Assembly: GCA_003514055.1 (NCBI GenBank)
Contig: DOSG01000008.1
Location: 121,229 to 185,228 of the forward strand
Reading direction: 5' to 3'
DNA length: 64,000 nucleotides
Source of the DNA: Candidatus Yanofskybacteria bacterium
Lineage (GTDB): Bacteria; Patescibacteriota; Minisyncoccia; 2-02-FULL-40-12; GWA2-44-9
The translations under genes and the position numbers were made by a program. The notes below the pieces were generated by a model, which worked only from the letters and a program-made list of their open reading frames with translations, was not told the origin of the DNA and did not search any database. Positions 41,180 through 52,039 of this stretch are shown piece by piece (positions within the stretch are counted from its first letter, which is position 1; every line of letters starts with the position of its first letter).

Positions 41180-41211
41180 AGGCCTGACACACGCGCTTGT
41201 GTGTCAGGCCT
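41180..41211. terminator. perfect 12-bp GC-rich hairpin (GGCCTGACACAC-GCGCTT-GTGTGTCAGGCC)
   Basis: Read directly; lies between the GC-rich ORF stop (41234) and the lon start; partial T run on the minus side. Confidence 0.4.
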
Positions 41212-41233
41212 CGATGGCCTGCCGGCCGATCGG

Positions 41234-41650
41234 CTACTCGCCGAACAGAGCGGCGACCGCCGTGGCCTGGACCTTCTCGAGCTCGGCTGCAGCAGCGGTC
41301 CGATTGGCATTCGCAATCATGGCCTGTTGCTGCAGGATCTCGTTCTGCGCAGCCTTGGACCGTTCACCAGCCGCCACGATCTGGTTGTCCCGCTCCGTAA
41401 GGAGCGCCTTCAGGTCGGCGCCGACCCGACTCTGAATCTCCATCATCGCGAGGACGCCCATCGCGATCTTCGCGCCCAGGCCAGCCTGATCACCGAGCTG
41501 CTGGAACATGGGTGCGGCTTTGGCGGCCTGCGCCAGGCCGAATGTCTTGACCGGCACCGGCTTGGGTGCCGGAGGCGGAGGCGTCAGCTTCCGCATGACG
41601 ATGAACGTGATGACCGCAACGACCACTGCGACGAGAAAGTAGTTGACCAT
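41234..41650 (-). CDS. GC-rich membrane-anchored protein with Pro-rich linker and helical domain
   Basis: From the internal ATG: MVNYFLVAVVVAVITFIVM (TM), PPPPAPKPVPVK linker, helical C-domain. GGGAGA SD 6 nt upstream. GC about 62 %. Confidence 0.4.
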   Translation of the reverse strand: MVNYFLVAVVVAVITFIVMRKLTPPPPAPKPVPVKTFGLAQAAKAAPMFQQLGDQAGLGAKIAMGVLAMMEIQSRVGADLKALLTERDNQIVAAGERSKAAQNEILQQQAMIANANRTAAAAELEKVQATAVAALFGE

Positions 41651-41736
41651 CTTGATTCTCCCTGAGCCATTTCTTCTTTCCCCACCGACTGGCTCTACGT
41701 CGGGTGGGGCTGGACACAACAACGAACTGTACTTAC

Positions 41737-41765
41737 ATTATACCGCATACGCGCTGAAAAGTCAA
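41737..41765 (-). promoter_or_regulatory. near-consensus sigma70 promoter TTGACT-17-TATAAT driving the GC-rich ORF
   Basis: Minus strand reads ATGCTTGACTTTTCAGCGCGTATGCGGTATAATGTAAG; 5'-UTR hairpin follows. Confidence 0.45.
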
Positions 41766-41834
41766 GCATAATTTTCTCACCAAAAAACGGCCATTTAGGC
41801 CGTCTTCGGGATGAAATACCTTATACAATAAATT

Positions 41835-47254: not shown

Positions 47255-47866
47255 TCATTTTTTACCTAATATTTTCAAAGCCTCACGGACCCTTTCTTCT
47301 AACGACTTACCTCCGCCCACTTCTTTCAATGCATTCGTGGCTTGGCTGGTACTGTAGCCGAGTGCCACTAAGGCCTCCACCACACTACTATCTTCACCAA
47401 GATTCATTCCGGTCACGTCCGCCGCATCTATGTAATCAACCTTAGTCTTGAGTTCCAAAACAAGCCTCTGGGCAAGCTTCCCACCGAAACCCGACACCTT
47501 CTTCAAGTAATCGGCATCCCCGTTCATAACAGCCGCTTTTAGATGCTGGGGCTCAACTACGGTTAGAATGGCCATAGCATTCTTGGAACCGACACCGTTT
47601 ACTGTTTTTAACAGATGAAACAACTCTAAATCCTGCCGCCTATCGAAACCGTATAGGTCAAAAGTGCCCTCGCGCATATTGAGCTGAGAATGGACGTATA
47701 GCTTAATTTTCCTATTGACATCGACCTTTTCTTTTGATACAATATTAAGCAATTTGGGGGATACTATGACCCTATACCCTATACCGCCCTGGCCGGGCAG
47801 GCCGGCATTCAAAATCAGGTACTTATCGCCCAAATATTCTATTGTTCCCTCTAGAAACGAGATCAT
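47255..47866 (-). CDS. ruvA: Holliday junction branch migration protein RuvA
   Basis: MISFLEGTIEY N-terminal OB, HhH pair, C-terminal RuvB-interaction domain. Confidence 0.85.
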   Translation of the reverse strand: MISFLEGTIEYLGDKYLILNAGLPGQGGIGYRVIVSPKLLNIVSKEKVDVNRKIKLYVHSQLNMREGTFDLYGFDRRQDLELFHLLKTVNGVGSKNAMAILTVVEPQHLKAAVMNGDADYLKKVSGFGGKLAQRLVLELKTKVDYIDAADVTGMNLGEDSSVVEALVALGYSTSQATNALKEVGGGKSLEERVREALKILGKK

Positions 47867-47904
47867 ACCTTAAAGATACCATTGAAATTTGAATAAAAAA
47901 AGAG

Positions 47905-47935
47905 GGCCCGCGCACGCGCGGGACCCTTCGACGGA
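47905..47935 (-). terminator. intrinsic terminator of the GC-rich small ORF
   Basis: GGGCCCGCGC-ACGC-GCGGGACCC imperfect hairpin followed on the minus strand by CTTTTTTTATTC. Confidence 0.45.
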
Positions 47936-48121
47936 CTACTTGCCGTCCTTGATAGCAGCACCGACAATCGTAGCCGCAGCAATCAAGGAAGTCATGATCG
48001 ATAGCAGCGCCATCGTCGCAGCCATCCAGGGTACATTAGCCCAGAGAAAGGCACCGGTCGCCAGAGCGAAACCAGCTGACGCCCTCGCCGCACGATAAAC
48101 CTGATCTACGCTCACGTTCAT
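47936..48121 (-). CDS. GC-rich small two-TM membrane protein
   Basis: From the internal ATG: MNVSVDQVYRAARASAGFALATGAFLWANVPWMAATMALLSIMTSLIAAATIVGAAIKDGK; GGAGGGGGG SD upstream. Confidence 0.35.
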   Translation of the reverse strand: MNVSVDQVYRAARASAGFALATGAFLWANVPWMAATMALLSIMTSLIAAATIVGAAIKDGK

Positions 48122-48148
48122 GTCTCTACCCCCCCCTCCAGTATTCAT

Positions 48149-48177
48149 ACCATAACATATTTCACATATAAGGTCAA
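48149..48177 (-). promoter_or_regulatory. sigma70-like promoter TTGACC-17-TATGGT for the GC-rich small ORF, abutting the uvrB start codon
   Basis: Minus strand reads TTGACCTTATATGTGAAATATGTTATGGTATGAATACTGGAGGGGGG. Confidence 0.4.
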
Positions 48178-50202
48178 ATGTTTAAGCTTTCGTCAAAATA
48201 TAAGCCCACCGGCGACCAACCGACAGCCATAGAAAAATTGGTCAAAGGATTAAAATCCAAGAAGAAACATCAGGTACTTTTGGGCGTAACAGGCTCGGGT
48301 AAAACATTTACTATAGCCAAGGTGATTGAACGTCACCAGAAACCAACTCTTATTATATCTCATAATAAAACCCTGGCCGCTCAGCTATATCGAGAATTCA
48401 AAGAATATTTTCCAAACAATGCCGTCCACTATTTCGTCAGTTATTATGATTACTATCAACCAGAAGCATATCTCCCCCATTCCAATACATACATCGAGAA
48501 AGACTCTAAGATAAACGAGGACATTGATCGTCTTAGACACGCTGCCACTCAGGCCCTGATCGGTCGCGACGATGTAATCATCGTCGCGTCAGTATCTTGC
48601 ATCTACAACCTTGGTTCGCCAGAAGAATACAAGGATCTCGGTCTTGAGATATTTGAAGGTCAAAAAATAAATCCTTCGGACCTAGGCCGAGGACTGCTTA
48701 GACTTCAATATGCCCAAGATATCGAGTTAAAAAGAAGTTGCTTCAGAAAGACTAAAAATGAATTTGAAATAGTTACGCCAAGTGGCCAGGAGATCATTAA
48801 AATAATCTTCTCTACTAAAAGCGAGAAAGAAGACCTAATCGAAAAAATATATAGGGGCTCCGTGGATGATCCAGAAGATATGGAAATGCGAGATATAAAA
48901 TACGAAAGGATTGCAGCCACTGTCATATTTCCGGCTAAGTATTGGATCACCTCCGGTGACAAATTAGCTTTAGCAATTGAGAATATTAAAAGCGAACTCC
49001 AGCGCCATGTGAAGCATCTAAAAAAAGAGGGTAAGAACGAAGAAGCATTCCGTCTTCAAGCTAAAACACTTCAGGATGTCGAGATGATGCGCCAAACTGG
49101 CTACTGTCATGGCATAGAGAATTATTCTCGCCACCTAGACTTCAGAAAACCAGACGACCCGCCATACTCCCTACTAGACTTCTTCAAATCAAAGGGGAAA
49201 TTTTTAACTATAATCGACGAGTCTCATATAACTATTCCCCAACTCAGAAGTATGTATAATGGTGATCATTCCAGAAAAAGTACTTTAGTCGAGTACGGTT
49301 TTAGATTGCCCTCGGCCATAGACAATAGACCCCTAAGATTCCCGGAGTTCGAGAAGAGAGTTCAGGAAACAATATATGCTTCGGCCACTCCGGGCAAACA
49401 CGAATTAGCAAAAGCCGGCAAAGATAATGTCGCCGAACAGCTGGTACGGCCAACTGGGCTATTGGATCCGACAATCGAGATACAACCAACCGATAATCAG
49501 ATACCCCACCTACTCGAACAAATCAGACAAAGAGTATCCAAAAACGAACGAGTTTTGATTACGACTTTAACTAAGAGAATGGCAGAAGACCTATCAGAGC
49601 ACTTGGCCGATCAAGGCATTAAGGTAAATTACCTTCACTCAGAGATAAAAACATTAGACAGAATTAAGATTCTTAAAGACCTGCGCCTTGGCACTCATGA
49701 CGTCATCGTAGGTGTTAATCTATTAAGAGAAGGCCTCGACTTACCCGAAGTTTCGCTTATCGCCATCCTAGACGCCGACAAAGAAGGCTTCCTTCGCAAC
49801 TACACAACTTTAATTCAAACCATGGGCCGTGCCGCCAGAAACGTAAACGGCCACGTGATCATGTACGCCGATAAGCAAACTAAATCTATAAAAGAAGCGG
49901 TTCAAGAAGCCACGCGAAGAAGAAAGAAGCAAGAGCTATACAACATCGATAACAACATTACTCCCGCAACCATAATCAAAGAAATAGGTAAATTTGATTT
50001 GCCAATTTCAAAGGCAGCTTCATATAAGATGGATAACCCCGACTCCAATAATAATGAGGATATTATCTTCTACGGCAGTGCCAGCAAGCAAAGAGTGCTA
50101 AAACAACTAGAGAAGATGATGGAGCGAGCCATGCGAAAATTTGAATACGAAACGGCCATGGAGCTAAAAGAACAGATTCGCAAGCTCAAGGGCCAAGAAT
50201 AA
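48178..50202 (+). CDS. uvrB: excinuclease ABC subunit B
   Basis: GVTGSGKTF Walker A, helicase motifs, C-terminal UVR domain (YETAMELKEQIRKLK). Confidence 0.9.
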   Translation: MFKLSSKYKPTGDQPTAIEKLVKGLKSKKKHQVLLGVTGSGKTFTIAKVIERHQKPTLIISHNKTLAAQLYREFKEYFPNNAVHYFVSYYDYYQPEAYLPHSNTYIEKDSKINEDIDRLRHAATQALIGRDDVIIVASVSCIYNLGSPEEYKDLGLEIFEGQKINPSDLGRGLLRLQYAQDIELKRSCFRKTKNEFEIVTPSGQEIIKIIFSTKSEKEDLIEKIYRGSVDDPEDMEMRDIKYERIAATVIFPAKYWITSGDKLALAIENIKSELQRHVKHLKKEGKNEEAFRLQAKTLQDVEMMRQTGYCHGIENYSRHLDFRKPDDPPYSLLDFFKSKGKFLTIIDESHITIPQLRSMYNGDHSRKSTLVEYGFRLPSAIDNRPLRFPEFEKRVQETIYASATPGKHELAKAGKDNVAEQLVRPTGLLDPTIEIQPTDNQIPHLLEQIRQRVSKNERVLITTLTKRMAEDLSEHLADQGIKVNYLHSEIKTLDRIKILKDLRLGTHDVIVGVNLLREGLDLPEVSLIAILDADKEGFLRNYTTLIQTMGRAARNVNGHVIMYADKQTKSIKEAVQEATRRRKKQELYNIDNNITPATIIKEIGKFDLPISKAASYKMDNPDSNNNEDIIFYGSASKQRVLKQLEKMMERAMRKFEYETAMELKEQIRKLKGQE

Positions 50203-50220
50203 TTGTGCCCAAGTGGCTAT

Positions 50221-50249
50221 TGACATCGTAGGGCCAATGTGCTATACTT
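50221..50249 (+). promoter_or_regulatory. consensus sigma70 promoter TTGACA-17-TATACT
   Basis: TTGACATCGTAGGGCCAATGTGCTATACT; AAGGAGG SD at about 50317-50323, 6 nt before the ATG at 50330. Confidence 0.5.
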
Positions 50250-50329
50250 GACACAAGCTAGGAGTGGCTAGTGGACAGCGCCCGATATTGGGAATGCCAC
50301 AAGGTCGCTCTTTCACAAGGAGGCAGGAC

Positions 50330-50722
50330 ATGGGATGGACCAAGTCGAAGAAGTCATCGTTCAAGGCCGGCGACCGCGTCACCGTCCCCGGTGGGTACGG
50401 AGACGGCACAATCACCGAGTTCGAGGATGGCTGTGGCGGCGGAGAGCTGGCGAGCGTGAAGCTCGACAGCGGCCGACAGGAGTGGGTCGGCGTCAGCCGC
50501 CTCAAGGCGGCCGGACCGAAGAAGTCCACGGACAAGAAGGCCGACGACTACGAGCTCTACGTCCGTGACGTCATCAGAACGTCCGACGGCCGGCTCGGCC
50601 TGATCAAGGACTTCACGTACGGCGGGTGCAGCGACCAGTACGCCGTCGTGATGTTCCACGACGGTCAGACCCGCGAGTACAACGTCTCGCGGGTGACGCT
50701 GGTGGCGGCCGCAACGCGGTAA
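50330..50722 (+). CDS. GC-rich cytoplasmic protein with two KOW/Tudor-like beta repeats
   Basis: MGWTKSKKSSFKAGDRVTVPGGYGDGTITEF... and ...YELYVRDVIRTSDGRLGLIKDF...YAVVMFHDGQTREY. Start chosen at the SD-preceded internal ATG; the track ORF begins at an upstream GTG. Confidence 0.45.
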   Translation: MGWTKSKKSSFKAGDRVTVPGGYGDGTITEFEDGCGGGELASVKLDSGRQEWVGVSRLKAAGPKKSTDKKADDYELYVRDVIRTSDGRLGLIKDFTYGGCSDQYAVVMFHDGQTREYNVSRVTLVAAATR

Positions 50723-50779
50723 CGCCCCCCACCTCGCCCACCCAGGGCCGCCTCATCGACGAGATGAGGCGGCCCCCAA

Positions 50780-50824
50780 CCTCGCACAGAGTCAGCGATG
50801 ACTTATCCACGTGCGAGGTTTTTA
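50780..50824 (+). terminator. intrinsic terminator (CCTCGCAC...GTGCGAGG + TTTTT), preceded by a second 12-bp hairpin at about 50745-50775
   Basis: Read directly. Confidence 0.55.
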
Positions 50825-50917: not shown

Positions 50918-50946
50918 TTGATTTATCCTAGATTATATGTTATAAT
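50918..50946 (+). promoter_or_regulatory. consensus sigma70 promoter TTGATT-17-TATAAT
   Basis: TTGATTTATCCTAGATTATATGTTATAAT; AGAGAGGAG SD ending 4 nt before the ATG at 51005. Confidence 0.5.
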
Positions 50947-51004
50947 ACACGTACGGAGTGACCTTTTACAACCATTGCCGATACAACGTTAAGAGAGGAG
51001 ACAG

Positions 51005-51571
51005 ATGAGACAAGTACTCGTCGATAACTGTGGCTGGTTTTCGTTGTTGGCCTTCTTCGTAATGGGGTGGGCCTACTACATGACGGCCACGATCCTCATG
51101 CGAGGATCGCTGTTCATCGGCCTCCGCGGCCGAATCGACCAGATAGCCGAGAGCGGCTCGTGGCTCTGCACGAAGATTCGCGAGATGCTGGGATGCCTGA
51201 TGTGCACGGCCACCGAGGCGGCCATCTGGACACTCGGCATCGCGACTCTCGGACTCGGCCTGTGGTACAACGTTCCCGACGCGATCATCGGCGCGGCGCT
51301 CGAGAAAATCGGGGCGATTGGCTCCGATAAAATGATCGCGCTGCCGTGGTACGCAAGCGTGGCCATTATGGCCGGCGTATCGTTCGCCCTATCCCTGGCC
51401 GTCGCTGGTCAGGCCTGGGGCATCAAGTGCATCGTTGAGCATCAAGAGGTCAAGTTCTTGGAGCTTCGGAAAGGATCCCGAGCTCGAGAGATTGAACTCC
51501 TCGAGAGGATCAGCGAGCTCGAGAGAACTCCTGGAAAGAGTTGCGAGAAGTACGAATACGATCTGTCCTAA
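51005..51571 (+). CDS. GC-rich polytopic membrane protein with C-terminal charged coiled tail
   Basis: 4-5 TM (FSLLAFFVMGWAYYMTATIL...), then EIELLERISELERTPGK; 188 aa. Confidence 0.45.
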   Translation: MRQVLVDNCGWFSLLAFFVMGWAYYMTATILMRGSLFIGLRGRIDQIAESGSWLCTKIREMLGCLMCTATEAAIWTLGIATLGLGLWYNVPDAIIGAALEKIGAIGSDKMIALPWYASVAIMAGVSFALSLAVAGQAWGIKCIVEHQEVKFLELRKGSRAREIELLERISELERTPGKSCEKYEYDLS

Positions 51572-51584
51572 CGAAGGAGCTGAA

Positions 51585-51926
51585 ATGAAAGTTAAAGCCA
51601 TTATTCCGTTCGCTGAGTTCGCGACAATCTATGCCGCCCTACCTCGTTCCGAGAATTGCGCAACCGTAAGGTGCGCATTCAGCAAGACAACCTGCCACGT
51701 TCGGGAGGCTCGCGAAGCCTGCCGCGAGTGGTGGAAGCGCACCAACGACGGTGCGCCAGGATTCTCGAATTACGAGGCCACGTTCCAGAATGCGATCGAT
51801 GCCGAGAACGCCATCTACTGGTGTTTCCGGACTGGCGACATGGAACCGGCCCAAAAGGCATACGATCTTTTGACCGACGAGCTTCGTGCTCGATTCAGCG
51901 GTCAGCTCCGGATGTCCGGTAGCTAG
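51585..51926 (+). CDS. GC-rich small Cys-containing protein
   Basis: MKVKAIIPFAEF...ENCATVRCAFSKTTCHVREAREACREWW (4 Cys, possible metal site); AAGGAG SD 6 nt upstream; 13 nt after the previous stop (operon). Confidence 0.4.
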   Translation: MKVKAIIPFAEFATIYAALPRSENCATVRCAFSKTTCHVREAREACREWWKRTNDGAPGFSNYEATFQNAIDAENAIYWCFRTGDMEPAQKAYDLLTDELRARFSGQLRMSGS

Positions 51927-51954
51927 ATCTGGCATTCACCACCGGCATAGCCGG

Positions 51955-51986
51955 GGCCGCCCCTCAAAAGGCGGCTTTTATTTTTA
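51955..51986 (+). terminator. intrinsic terminator (GCCGCC-CCTCAAAA-GGCGGC + TTTTATTTTT)
   Basis: Read directly. Confidence 0.55.
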
Positions 51987-52039
51987 TACTTGCAAATATC
52001 AATAAAATGTATTAAAGTATGTAAATCAATTTACATATA

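What the first reader, a model, noticed from the sequence alone, without database searches (positions are those of the whole stretch)
47880..48177. GC-rich mini-gene wedged into the divergent ruvA/uvrB promoter region
A 61-aa two-TM protein gene with its own TTGACC-17-TATGGT promoter, GGAGGGGGG SD and hairpin-plus-T terminator occupies the roughly 310-bp gap between the ruvA start and the uvrB start. Its -35 element abuts the uvrB ATG (about 48172-48177 versus 48178). The insert therefore must have displaced or now supplies the uvrB upstream region, which probably changes uvrB regulation.
Basis: seen in the sequence. Interest (0 to 1): 0.6.

Follow-up and report, generated by a model that had tools for sequence, protein, structure and literature searches.

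The report
Swappable small membrane-protein gene before uvrB
The GC-rich stretch between ruvA and uvrB is a real, conserved gene for a 61-residue membrane protein, sitting in a slot where related bacteria carry other small membrane-protein genes or none, and it lies between uvrB and a conserved promoter-like site hidden inside ruvA.

Summary
The 311-bp ruvA-uvrB gap carries a minus-strand unit: promoter TTGACC-17-TATGGT, SD GGAGGGGGGGG, a 61-aa ORF (47936-48121) and a hairpin plus T7 terminator. Its -35 abuts the uvrB ATG.

It is a real gene. A Yanofskybacteria relative (L091) has a gapless 54%-identical homologue in the same slot, with the same promoter, SD and terminator, and pN 0.29 against pS 0.72.

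It is not a recent foreign insert. About 60% of the GC excess comes from 26% alanine. GC3 is only mildly raised (0.61; 0.51 in L091).

The slot is variable. Seven of the 19 lineages compared carry a cassette behind the same borders (CAT|TTGAC and CTCTTTTTTTATTC), with different small hydrophobic ORFs. The closest relative (UvrB 97%) carries an unrelated 100-aa ORF. Twelve lineages have only 9-88 bp there.

The new point is a near-consensus extended -10 promoter (47715-47743, + strand) inside ruvA that points at uvrB. It is kept in all 17 genomes checked, through fixed synonymous sites. The cassette therefore sits inside the predicted uvrB leader (about 428 nt, against about 115-190 nt) and antisense to it.

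The protein's function is unknown. Regulatory coupling is inferred, with no transcript data. Moderately interesting.

The parts
47715..47743 (+). Predicted uvrB promoter inside the ruvA coding sequence, antisense to ruvA codons about 42-51. It reads TTGACA-17-TACAAT with TG before the -10. The predicted start is near 47750.
   Evidence: It scores 11/12 with TG and is one of only five sites at or above 11/12 in the 64-kb window. The same element sits at the same ruvA codons in all 17 genomes checked, including the window. The Val codon is always GTC, against 22% host usage. The V/L codon is always xTA. The next codon is always xCA, even when the residue changes among S, A, P and T.
47255..47866 (-). 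ruvA
   Evidence: Pfam RuvA_N, HHH_5 and RuvA_C.
47873..47881 (-). ruvA extended -10 (TGGTATCTT), 6 nt before the ATG. This predicts a leaderless ruvA mRNA.
   Evidence: A TGnTA...T motif stands 6 nt before the ruvA ATG in cassette-bearing relatives and in most cassette-free relatives (read from the spacers).
47891..47926 (-). Intrinsic terminator of the mini-gene. The stem is 47904-47926, followed by CTCTTTTTTTATTC. The T-run segment is the conserved right border of the slot.
   Evidence: The border sequence is invariant in window, L083, L084 and L086 and in L091. It occurs once in the window. The + strand has no T-run after the hairpin, so it is predicted to work in one direction only.
47936..48121 (-). 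Mini-gene coding sequence, 61 aa: MNVSVDQVYRAARASAGFALATGAFLWANVPWMAATMALLSIMTSLIAAATIVGAAIKDGK
   Evidence: Homologue in L091: 54% identity, gapless over 59 aa, E 5e-22. pN is 0.29 and pS 0.72. The sense frame is the best-conserved. The aligned start codon supports the 61-aa form.
48129..48139 (-). Shine-Dalgarno GGAGGGGGGGG, including a G8 run
   Evidence: ACTGGAGG is conserved in L091. The extra G-run is specific to the window.
48149..48177 (-). Mini-gene promoter, TTGACC-17-TATGGT with TG. The -35 forms the conserved left border and abuts the uvrB ATG.
   Evidence: CAT|TTGAC is shared by the cassette-bearing relatives. In L092 the -35 reads TTGATA and lies next to a relic uvrB start.
48178..50202 (+). 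uvrB
   Evidence: Pfam UvrB, UVR, Helicase_C and ResIII.

Best explanation
Coordinates 47891-48177 are a self-contained expression cassette on the minus strand.

Shown:
- It has a sigma-70 promoter, a strong SD, a 61-aa alanine-rich hydrophobic protein and an intrinsic terminator.
- It is a genuine protein gene under purifying selection.
- It has been resident for a long time in a variable slot of one Candidatus Yanofskybacteria sub-clade.
- The slot has fixed borders: a -35 TTGAC against the uvrB start codon, and CTCTTTTTTTATTC just ahead of the ruvA -10.
- Between those borders, different lineages carry different small (58-100 aa) multi-hydrophobic-helix proteins with no detectable similarity to one another, or nothing.
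- The content does not follow the genome phylogeny.

Inferred:
- Whole cassettes are replaced or lost at the borders, or old alleles persist across lineages.
- uvrB is transcribed from the conserved extended -10 promoter inside ruvA (47715-47743).
- In cassette-bearing genomes that transcript must run about 428 nt, antisense through the whole mini-gene, before it reaches uvrB. It meets the mini-gene promoter head-on.
- The two units are therefore expected to interfere with each other through polymerase collision and sense/antisense pairing. Mini-gene expression would damp or condition uvrB expression, and the reverse.

Most likely, weakly supported:
- The protein is a small membrane-inserted helical protein with an accessory role. 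Its biochemical function is unknown.
For: - Anatomy.
- Coding status: the L091 homologue is 54% identical without gaps (E 5e-22). pN is 0.29 against pS 0.72, compared with ruvA at 0.16 and 0.73. The sense frame scores best. Promoter, SD, start codon and terminator all align.
- GC: expected GC is 0.508 from composition alone. GC3 is 0.61, against a host mean of 0.40 and maximum of 0.51 (p about 0.007). GC3 in L091 is 0.51.
- Slot variability: spacers are 9-27 bp in L003-L009, L090 and L094. They are 353-420 bp, with other small hydrophobic ORFs, in L083, L084, L086, L092 and L098.
- The closest relative, L083 (UvrB 97%, RuvA 92% aa; 86% nt), has an unrelated 100-aa ORF.
- The flanks are 91-96% identical to L083 right up to the borders.
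- Relic copies of the uvrB 5' end lie beside the slot in L092 and L097.
- uvrB promoter: present in 17/17 genomes checked, with fixed synonymous sites and fixed 17-nt spacing. It is retained in every cassette-bearing lineage. No + strand terminator is predicted between it and uvrB.
Against: - There are no transcript data. All start sites, read-through and interference are predictions from sequence.
- AT-rich -10-like hexamers close to the uvrB ATG (for example TATAAG-5 nt-ATG) could form a secondary uvrB promoter. That would make the long leader unnecessary.
- The conserved intragenic promoter could serve another purpose, such as antisense control of ruvA.
- The type A family has only two members, so selection estimates rest on 59 codons with saturated dS.
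- Membrane insertion is inferred from hydropathy. The first helix is only weakly hydrophobic, and AlphaFold gives a single helix.
- The mildly raised GC3 in the window copy is unexplained.
Confidence: 0.6

Rival explanations
1. Recent horizontal insertion. A foreign GC-rich gene, for example from a GC-rich donor or a phage, landed recently in this genome's ruvA/uvrB promoter region.
For: - GC is 56% against 42%.
- GC3 is 0.61, above every one of 40 host genes.
- The same window does hold truly foreign-looking GC-rich units nearby, with GC3 of 0.76-0.89.
- No other homologue was found in 5.8 billion proteins or 1.84 billion representatives.
Against: - The same gene is in the same slot in L091. 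Its synonymous divergence is as saturated as that of ruvA, so it is as old as the split between the two genomes.
- Most of the GC excess is alanine content.
- The borders are shared with normal-GC cassettes.
- There are no phage, plasmid or viral-contig matches.
Confidence: 0.08
2. Type I toxin-antitoxin-like module. The small hydrophobic protein is a membrane-damaging toxin. The long uvrB leader, or another antisense RNA, acts as its antitoxin and ties the module to a DNA-repair gene.
For: - The protein is small and hydrophobic and has a strong promoter and SD.
- It is fully overlapped by a predicted antisense transcript from a conserved promoter.
- Presence is patchy, and unrelated small hydrophobic ORFs occupy one intergenic site. 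From my own knowledge, this is typical of type I loci.
Against: - No match to any known toxin family reaches threshold in Pfam or NCBIfam.
- No dedicated small-RNA promoter or terminator was found.
- The 5' UTR is short (about 20 nt), with no fold that would sequester the SD.
- At 58-100 aa with 2-3 helices, these proteins are larger than most type I toxins.
- The antisense promoter also exists in genomes without a cassette, so it did not evolve as an antitoxin.
Confidence: 0.15
3. GC-rich structured non-coding RNA, with the ORF a by-product of GC-rich sequence.
For: - GC-rich islands in AT-rich genomes often mark structured RNAs (own knowledge).
- ORFs are open on both strands.
Against: - The fold z-score is -1.15, and 33 of 200 shuffles fold as well.
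- The only Rfam match is a sub-threshold hit on the terminator hairpin (24.5 bits against 39).
- The alignment is gapless and in frame, with conservative replacements in one frame only.
- The SD and start codon are conserved.
- All other occupants of the slot are ordinary-GC hydrophobic ORFs.
Confidence: 0.03
4. One ancestral gene diverging very fast in place. Every slot occupant descends from the same small membrane-protein gene, and the window copy is simply an alanine-rich variant.
For: - Promoter -35, terminator T-run, orientation and general protein type (small, hydrophobic) are the same everywhere.
- MAFFT lines up a weak C-terminal W/I-G-x-x-x-D motif.
Against: - The window and L083 share 86% nt identity in the flanks but have no alignable DNA or protein between the borders.
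- The window and the much more distant L091 keep 54% protein identity.
- hhalign gives 0.1% probability for type A against the others.
- BLASTP finds nothing even among the 3-helix types.
Confidence: 0.12

Closest known systems
Phage morons: autonomous promoter-gene-terminator units inserted between conserved genes (criteria as summarised in PMC2920897)
   Same: - It has its own promoter and terminator.
- Its composition differs from its neighbours.
- It is inserted between two conserved adjacent genes.
- Presence is variable, and different units occupy the same hotspot in different genomes.
   Different: - The context is a bacterial chromosome between housekeeping repair genes, not a phage. 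No phage genes flank it, and no viral homologues were found.
- The composition difference is mostly due to amino-acid content.
- The borders are fixed regulatory motifs shared by all cassettes.
Excludons: overlapping antisense transcription of divergent neighbouring genes that gives mutually exclusive expression (PMC12288877)
   Same: - A long predicted 5' leader of one gene (uvrB) runs antisense across oppositely oriented genes (ruvA 5' end and the whole mini-gene).
- The promoters face each other.
   Different: - This is predicted from sequence only, with no transcript evidence.
- The basic ruvA/uvrB overlap of about 117 nt is ancestral in the clade. The cassette was added inside it.
Type I toxin-antitoxin loci (Hok/Sok, TisB/IstR, Fst and similar; own knowledge)
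   Same: - The protein is small, hydrophobic and strongly expressed.
- It is overlapped by antisense transcription.
- It lies in an intergenic site, is patchily distributed and turns over quickly.
   Different: - It matches no known toxin family.
- There is no dedicated antitoxin sRNA.
- It is longer than typical toxins.
- Toxicity has not been tested.
Variable loci with deeply divergent alleles behind conserved flanks, such as idiomorph-like or capsule-type loci (own knowledge)
   Same: - Unrelated sequences occupy one position.
- The flanks follow the species tree right up to sharp borders.
- One allele type is shared by distant lineages.
   Different: - The scale is a single tiny gene.
- Co-occurrence of alleles within one population has not been shown.

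Membership tests
Phage moron | Inserted between adjacent genes of a phage or prophage | tested here: not met
   The neighbours are ruvA, uvrB, femAB-like, Mur ligase and rpsT. There are no PHROG, viral-contig or phage-database matches.
Phage moron | Own promoter and terminator | tested here: met
   Both are conserved in L091.
Phage moron | Nucleotide composition different from its surroundings | tested here: met
   GC is 56% against 42%. About 60% of the excess is explained by 26% alanine.
Phage moron | Variable presence, with different units at the same hotspot | tested here: met
   There are 7 cassette-bearing and 12 cassette-free lineages, and at least 4-5 ORF types with no detectable similarity to one another (similarity tested).
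Excludon | Long UTR of one gene overlapping an oppositely oriented neighbour, seen as transcripts | not testable with these tools
   Only predicted promoters are available (47715-47743 + strand; 48149-48177 - strand), together with the absence of a + strand terminator. RNA-seq is needed.
Type I toxin-antitoxin | Small hydrophobic toxin belonging to a described toxin family | tested here: not met
   All Pfam and NCBIfam hits are far below the cut-offs.
Type I toxin-antitoxin | Cis-encoded antisense RNA antitoxin | tested here: inconclusive
   The only antisense promoter found is the conserved uvrB promoter. No separate sRNA unit is evident.
Type I toxin-antitoxin | Toxicity on overexpression | not testable with these tools
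   This needs an experiment.
Holin (two-helix class) | Match to a holin family, and an adjacent endolysin | tested here: not met
   Phage_r1t_holin scores E 0.46, or 11 bits against a cut-off of 26.9. No lysin gene is nearby.
LexA/SOS-controlled promoter | LexA operator (GAAC-N4-GTTC or CTGT-N8-ACAG type) at the promoter | tested here: not met
   No match lies in 47600-48177, even allowing one mismatch. Window-wide counts are below the shuffle means. Other operator types were not tested.
Structured non-coding RNA | Rfam family match, or unusually stable or covarying fold | tested here: not met

The most novel reading that the evidence does not exclude
In one Yanofskybacteria sub-clade, a fixed expression shell sits inside the uvrB leader and acts as a landing pad. 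The shell is a -35 against the uvrB start codon and a T-run ahead of the leaderless ruvA promoter. Unrelated small membrane-peptide genes are exchanged there at precise borders. Every occupant is transcribed head-on against the uvrB transcript, which starts at a promoter embedded in ruvA. This would couple a possibly toxic membrane peptide and nucleotide-excision repair in a mutually exclusive switch, a hybrid of an excludon and a type I toxin-antitoxin in ultra-small symbiotic bacteria.
Probability: 0.2. Interest if true: 0.6.

Novelty: new variant of a known kind. Interest (0 to 1): 0.4.

Why it matters
The mini-gene on its own is an ordinary uncharacterised small membrane protein with two known members.

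The context is more useful, for three reasons:
- It exposes a very compact and deeply conserved control layout. The candidate uvrB promoter lies inside ruvA, and ruvA is predicted to be leaderless.
- It shows that a streamlined CPR genome tolerates, and repeatedly remodels, a gene placed inside that layout.
- If transcript data confirm it, this would be a clear natural case of a promoter maintained by synonymous-site constraint, and of an accessory cassette wired antisense into a DNA-repair gene.

It is also a caution for annotation. GC-rich does not mean foreign here. The public 70-aa start is probably wrong. And "no homologue" in very large protein databases was overturned by looking at the syntenic DNA of a relative.

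Tried and rejected
- **Target-site duplication.** ATACCAT occurs at 47876-47882 and again at 48147-48153. I rejected a duplication because both copies are the core of extended -10 elements (TGGTAT) and the repeat is not kept in L091 or the other cassettes.
- **Homology between type A and the other slot proteins.** BLASTP found nothing. hhalign gave 0.1% probability.
- **Database searches with the 61-aa protein.** The 5.8-billion-protein search returned only itself. The exhaustive HMMER search returned itself plus P0122, a eukaryote-like repeat protein that hits through a repeated FLWKNVPQDAAT motif and is spurious. The real homologue (L091) was absent from both libraries. I found it only by walking RuvA relatives.
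- **Viral contigs, phage and plasmid collections.** No match.
- **Metagenome scan with the shell's right border.** This recovered only another copy of the L086 type.
- **Strain variation within the species.** L001, L002 and L096 are 100% identical to the window, so they give no polymorphism data.
- **Long recombination tract from an L091-like donor.** None is seen. The flanks are closest to L083 right up to the borders.
- **Paralogues in the window, and a link to the GC-rich 188-aa protein through LWxNVP.** The match is too short to count (E 0.024 over 9 aa).
- **LexA boxes.** None found.
- **Structure.** The single-sequence model gives one helix and does not settle the topology.
- **Origin of the other GC-rich islands.** They are orphans too.

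Full report
**Where the window comes from.** The window is identical to part of a Candidatus Yanofskybacteria (Patescibacteria/CPR) metagenome-assembled genome, GCA_001795995.1, contig MGLH01000010.1. The same RuvA protein is indexed in 63 blocks of the assembly collection. Overall GC is 41.8%.

**Checking the observation.**
- ruvA (47255-47866, minus strand) and uvrB (48178-50202, plus strand) are confirmed by Pfam. They are divergent and 311 bp apart.
The promoter is TTGACC-17-TATGGT at 48177-48149, scoring 9/12 with TG before the -10.
- The SD is GGAGGGGGGGG at 48139-48129, and the ATG is at 48121.
- The ORF encodes 61 aa and ends at the TAG (47938-47936).
- A GC-rich hairpin (47904-47926) is followed on the minus strand by CTCTTTTTTT.
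- The -35 touches the uvrB ATG.
- GC of 47890-48160 is 55.7%.

Taken alone these matches are not beyond chance. Two promoter-like sites were found where 1.4 are expected, and the opposite strand also has a 69-aa ORF.

**It is a real gene.** Walking through RuvA relatives led to L091 (GCA_041643015.1; RuvA 72%, UvrB 78% identical). It has, in the same slot and orientation, a 72-aa ORF that is 54% identical to the window protein, without gaps, over 59 residues (E 5e-22).
- The -35, the -10 (TATGAT), ACTGGAGG, the start codon, the terminator stem and the T-run all align.
- pN is 0.29 against pS 0.72. For ruvA in the same pair the values are 0.16 and 0.73.
- Because third codon positions coincide with those of one antisense frame, that frame is also open and 50% identical. 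Its replacements are radical, with a BLOSUM62 sum of 108 against 170 for the sense frame.
- The aligned start supports 61 aa. The ATG at 48148 used for the 70-aa public call lies between the -10 and the predicted start site.
- The two large protein searches found only the protein itself and one spurious repeat protein. L091 is simply not in those libraries.

**Why it is GC-rich.**
- The protein is 26% alanine, against 7% in host genes.
- With host codon usage this protein would have 50.8% GC. It has 56.5%.
- GC by codon position is 0.55, 0.53 and 0.61. The unusual value is GC2. GC3 is mildly high (p about 0.007; host mean 0.40, maximum 0.51).
- In L091, GC3 is 0.51.
- Three other GC-rich units in the window are of a different kind, with GC3 of 0.76-0.89.
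- The fold of the transcript is unremarkable (z -1.15). Rfam gives only a sub-threshold hit on the terminator.

**The slot is variable.** Nineteen lineages were compared, including the window.

| State of the ruvA-uvrB gap | Lineages |
|---|---|
| 9-27 bp between the start codons | L003-L009, L090, L094 |
| About 50-77 bp, more distant relatives | L010, L011 |
| 88 bp, with a relic copy of the uvrB 5' end | L097 |
| 311-420 bp with a small ORF co-oriented with ruvA | window, L091, L083, L084, L086 group, L092, L098 |

- The occupants are two type A genes (window, L091), three 86-100 aa three-helix proteins (L083, L084, L086), a 59-aa protein (L092) and a 58-aa protein (L098). None of them reaches a curated Pfam or NCBIfam cut-off.
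- All share the left border CAT|TTGAC and the right border CTCTTTTTTTATTC...TTTC(A)ATGsTAT. In L092 the -35 reads TTGATA, and in L092 and L098 the T-run is one base shorter.
- The right border occurs only once in the window.
- Slot content does not follow relatedness. L083 is the nearest genome (UvrB 97%, RuvA 92%, FemAB 92% aa; 86% nt). It is 91-96% identical to the window in the 90-135 nt next to both borders. Between the borders nothing aligns.
- Type A is shared with the much more distant L091, and its synonymous divergence is as deep as that of ruvA.
- L092 carries, right beside its cassette -35, a 17-18 nt relic of a uvrB start. The relic resembles the L083, L084 and L086 uvrB starts (15/20) more than its own (12/20).

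Together these points argue for replacement or loss of whole cassettes at sharp borders, or for long-lived alternative alleles. They argue against divergence in place and against a single recent insertion.

**The uvrB promoter.** The + strand scan found TTGACA-17-TACAAT with TG at 47715-47743, inside ruvA and pointing at uvrB. It is one of only five sites at or above 11/12 in the whole window.
- The same element is present at the same ruvA codons in all 17 genomes checked (9-11 of 12, TG always present, spacing always 17).
- In the 15 codon alignments, the Val codon under the -35 is always GTC, against 22% host usage. The V/L codon under the -10 always ends in TA. The following codon is always xCA even when the residue is S, A, P or T. 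This is a constraint on the DNA, not on the protein.
- In cassette-free genomes the -10 ends 122-140 nt before the uvrB ATG (196 nt in L097). In the window it ends 434 nt before, and in other cassette-bearing genomes 458-528 nt before.
- No + strand terminator is predicted in between. The mini-gene terminator and its counterparts in relatives lack a T-run in the + direction (read from the sequences).
- The promoter is retained in every cassette-bearing lineage, which suggests it is still in use.
- ruvA has a TGnTA...T extended -10 placed 6 nt before its ATG in most of these genomes, so it is probably leaderless.

**Mechanism (inferred).** The cassette lies inside the uvrB leader and is antisense to it. 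The mini-gene promoter and the uvrB promoter face each other across about 390 bp. Polymerase collision and sense/antisense pairing are therefore expected, as described for excludons (PMC12288877). The unit has moron-like features: its own promoter and terminator, deviant composition and a hotspot position (criteria in PMC2920897). It is chromosomal, however, and has no viral relatives. No LexA-type box is present.

**The protein.** It has a clearly hydrophobic segment at residues 33-56 and a weaker one at 14-28. A conserved N-x-P-W sequence separates them, and basic residues sit at both ends. A helical hairpin in the membrane is plausible. A single-sequence AlphaFold model gives one long helix (pLDDT 88, pTM 0.46). 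Function is unknown, and a toxin-like role is a minority possibility.

**Verdict.**
- The recent GC-rich insert reading is largely wrong.
- The finding is a new variant of known themes (moron-like cassette, antisense overlap) in a poorly studied phylum. It has one well-supported by-product, the conserved intragenic uvrB promoter.

Noticed in passing
window 50220-50780, 50920-51990, and 41180-41770 (minus strand): Three further GC-rich units (58-65% GC, GC3 0.76-0.89) lie in intergenic positions. Each has a near-consensus sigma-70 promoter (for example TTGACA-17-TATACT at 50220 and TTGACT-17-TATAAT at 41765) and an SD. Hairpin terminators follow at about 50746-50776, 51950-51980 and 41180-41215. 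Their ORFs (130 aa, 188 aa plus a downstream ORF, 138 aa) have no Pfam, PHROG, viral or phage hits. The 130-aa protein matches only itself in 5.8 billion proteins. Relative L086 has 71 bp between rpsT and uvrB where the window has about 2 kb. Unlike the mini-gene, these look truly foreign. Their source is unknown.
   Followed up: partly
window 15123-16308: A GC-rich (58%) stretch with no convincing ORF. A 163-nt direct repeat, 99% identical, lies at 15589-15751 and 16102-16264. There is no Rfam match. A 12/12 promoter lies nearby at about 16546 (minus strand).
   Followed up: partly
window 47715-47743 and the equivalent ruvA codons in L003-L009, L083-L098: A promoter embedded antisense in ruvA is maintained by fixed synonymous and even non-synonymous codon choices (GTC, xTA, xCA) across genomes whose RuvA proteins are only 50-92% identical. 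It is a clear example of overlapping coding and regulatory constraint.
   Followed up: yes
L092 2268-2307; L097 2413-2483: Short relic copies of the uvrB 5' end (VFKLSS and MFKLSSKF) lie next to the slot borders. This suggests repeated duplication or illegitimate recombination at this junction.
   Followed up: partly
window 48129-48136: A homopolymeric run of eight G (on the minus strand) lies between the SD core and the start codon. It is absent from L091. Such a run could vary in length, but L001, L002 and L096 are identical to the window there.
   Followed up: partly
L098 2405-2500: Between the cassette terminator and ruvA there are about 90 bp of near-palindromic tandem heptamers (TAGCGAC x3 ... 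CTAGTGG x2). They displace the usual ruvA -10, and ruvA starts with GTG there.
   Followed up: no
window 47785-47802 (ruvA codons 22-27): The window's RuvA has an LPGQGG insertion. It is shared with the distant L092 and L094 but is absent from the closest relative L083 and from L091. This is either a recurrent indel or a sign of mosaicism.
   Followed up: no
L083 2695-3027: The closest relative has an extra 110-aa ORF with no Pfam match between ruvA and the femAB-like gene. The window has only 99 bp there. This is another small variable insertion.
   Followed up: no
window 47936-48148: Public gene calls give a 70-aa product starting at the ATG at 48148. That codon lies between the -10 and the predicted transcription start and upstream of the SD. 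The homologue alignment supports the 61-aa start at 48121.
   Followed up: yes
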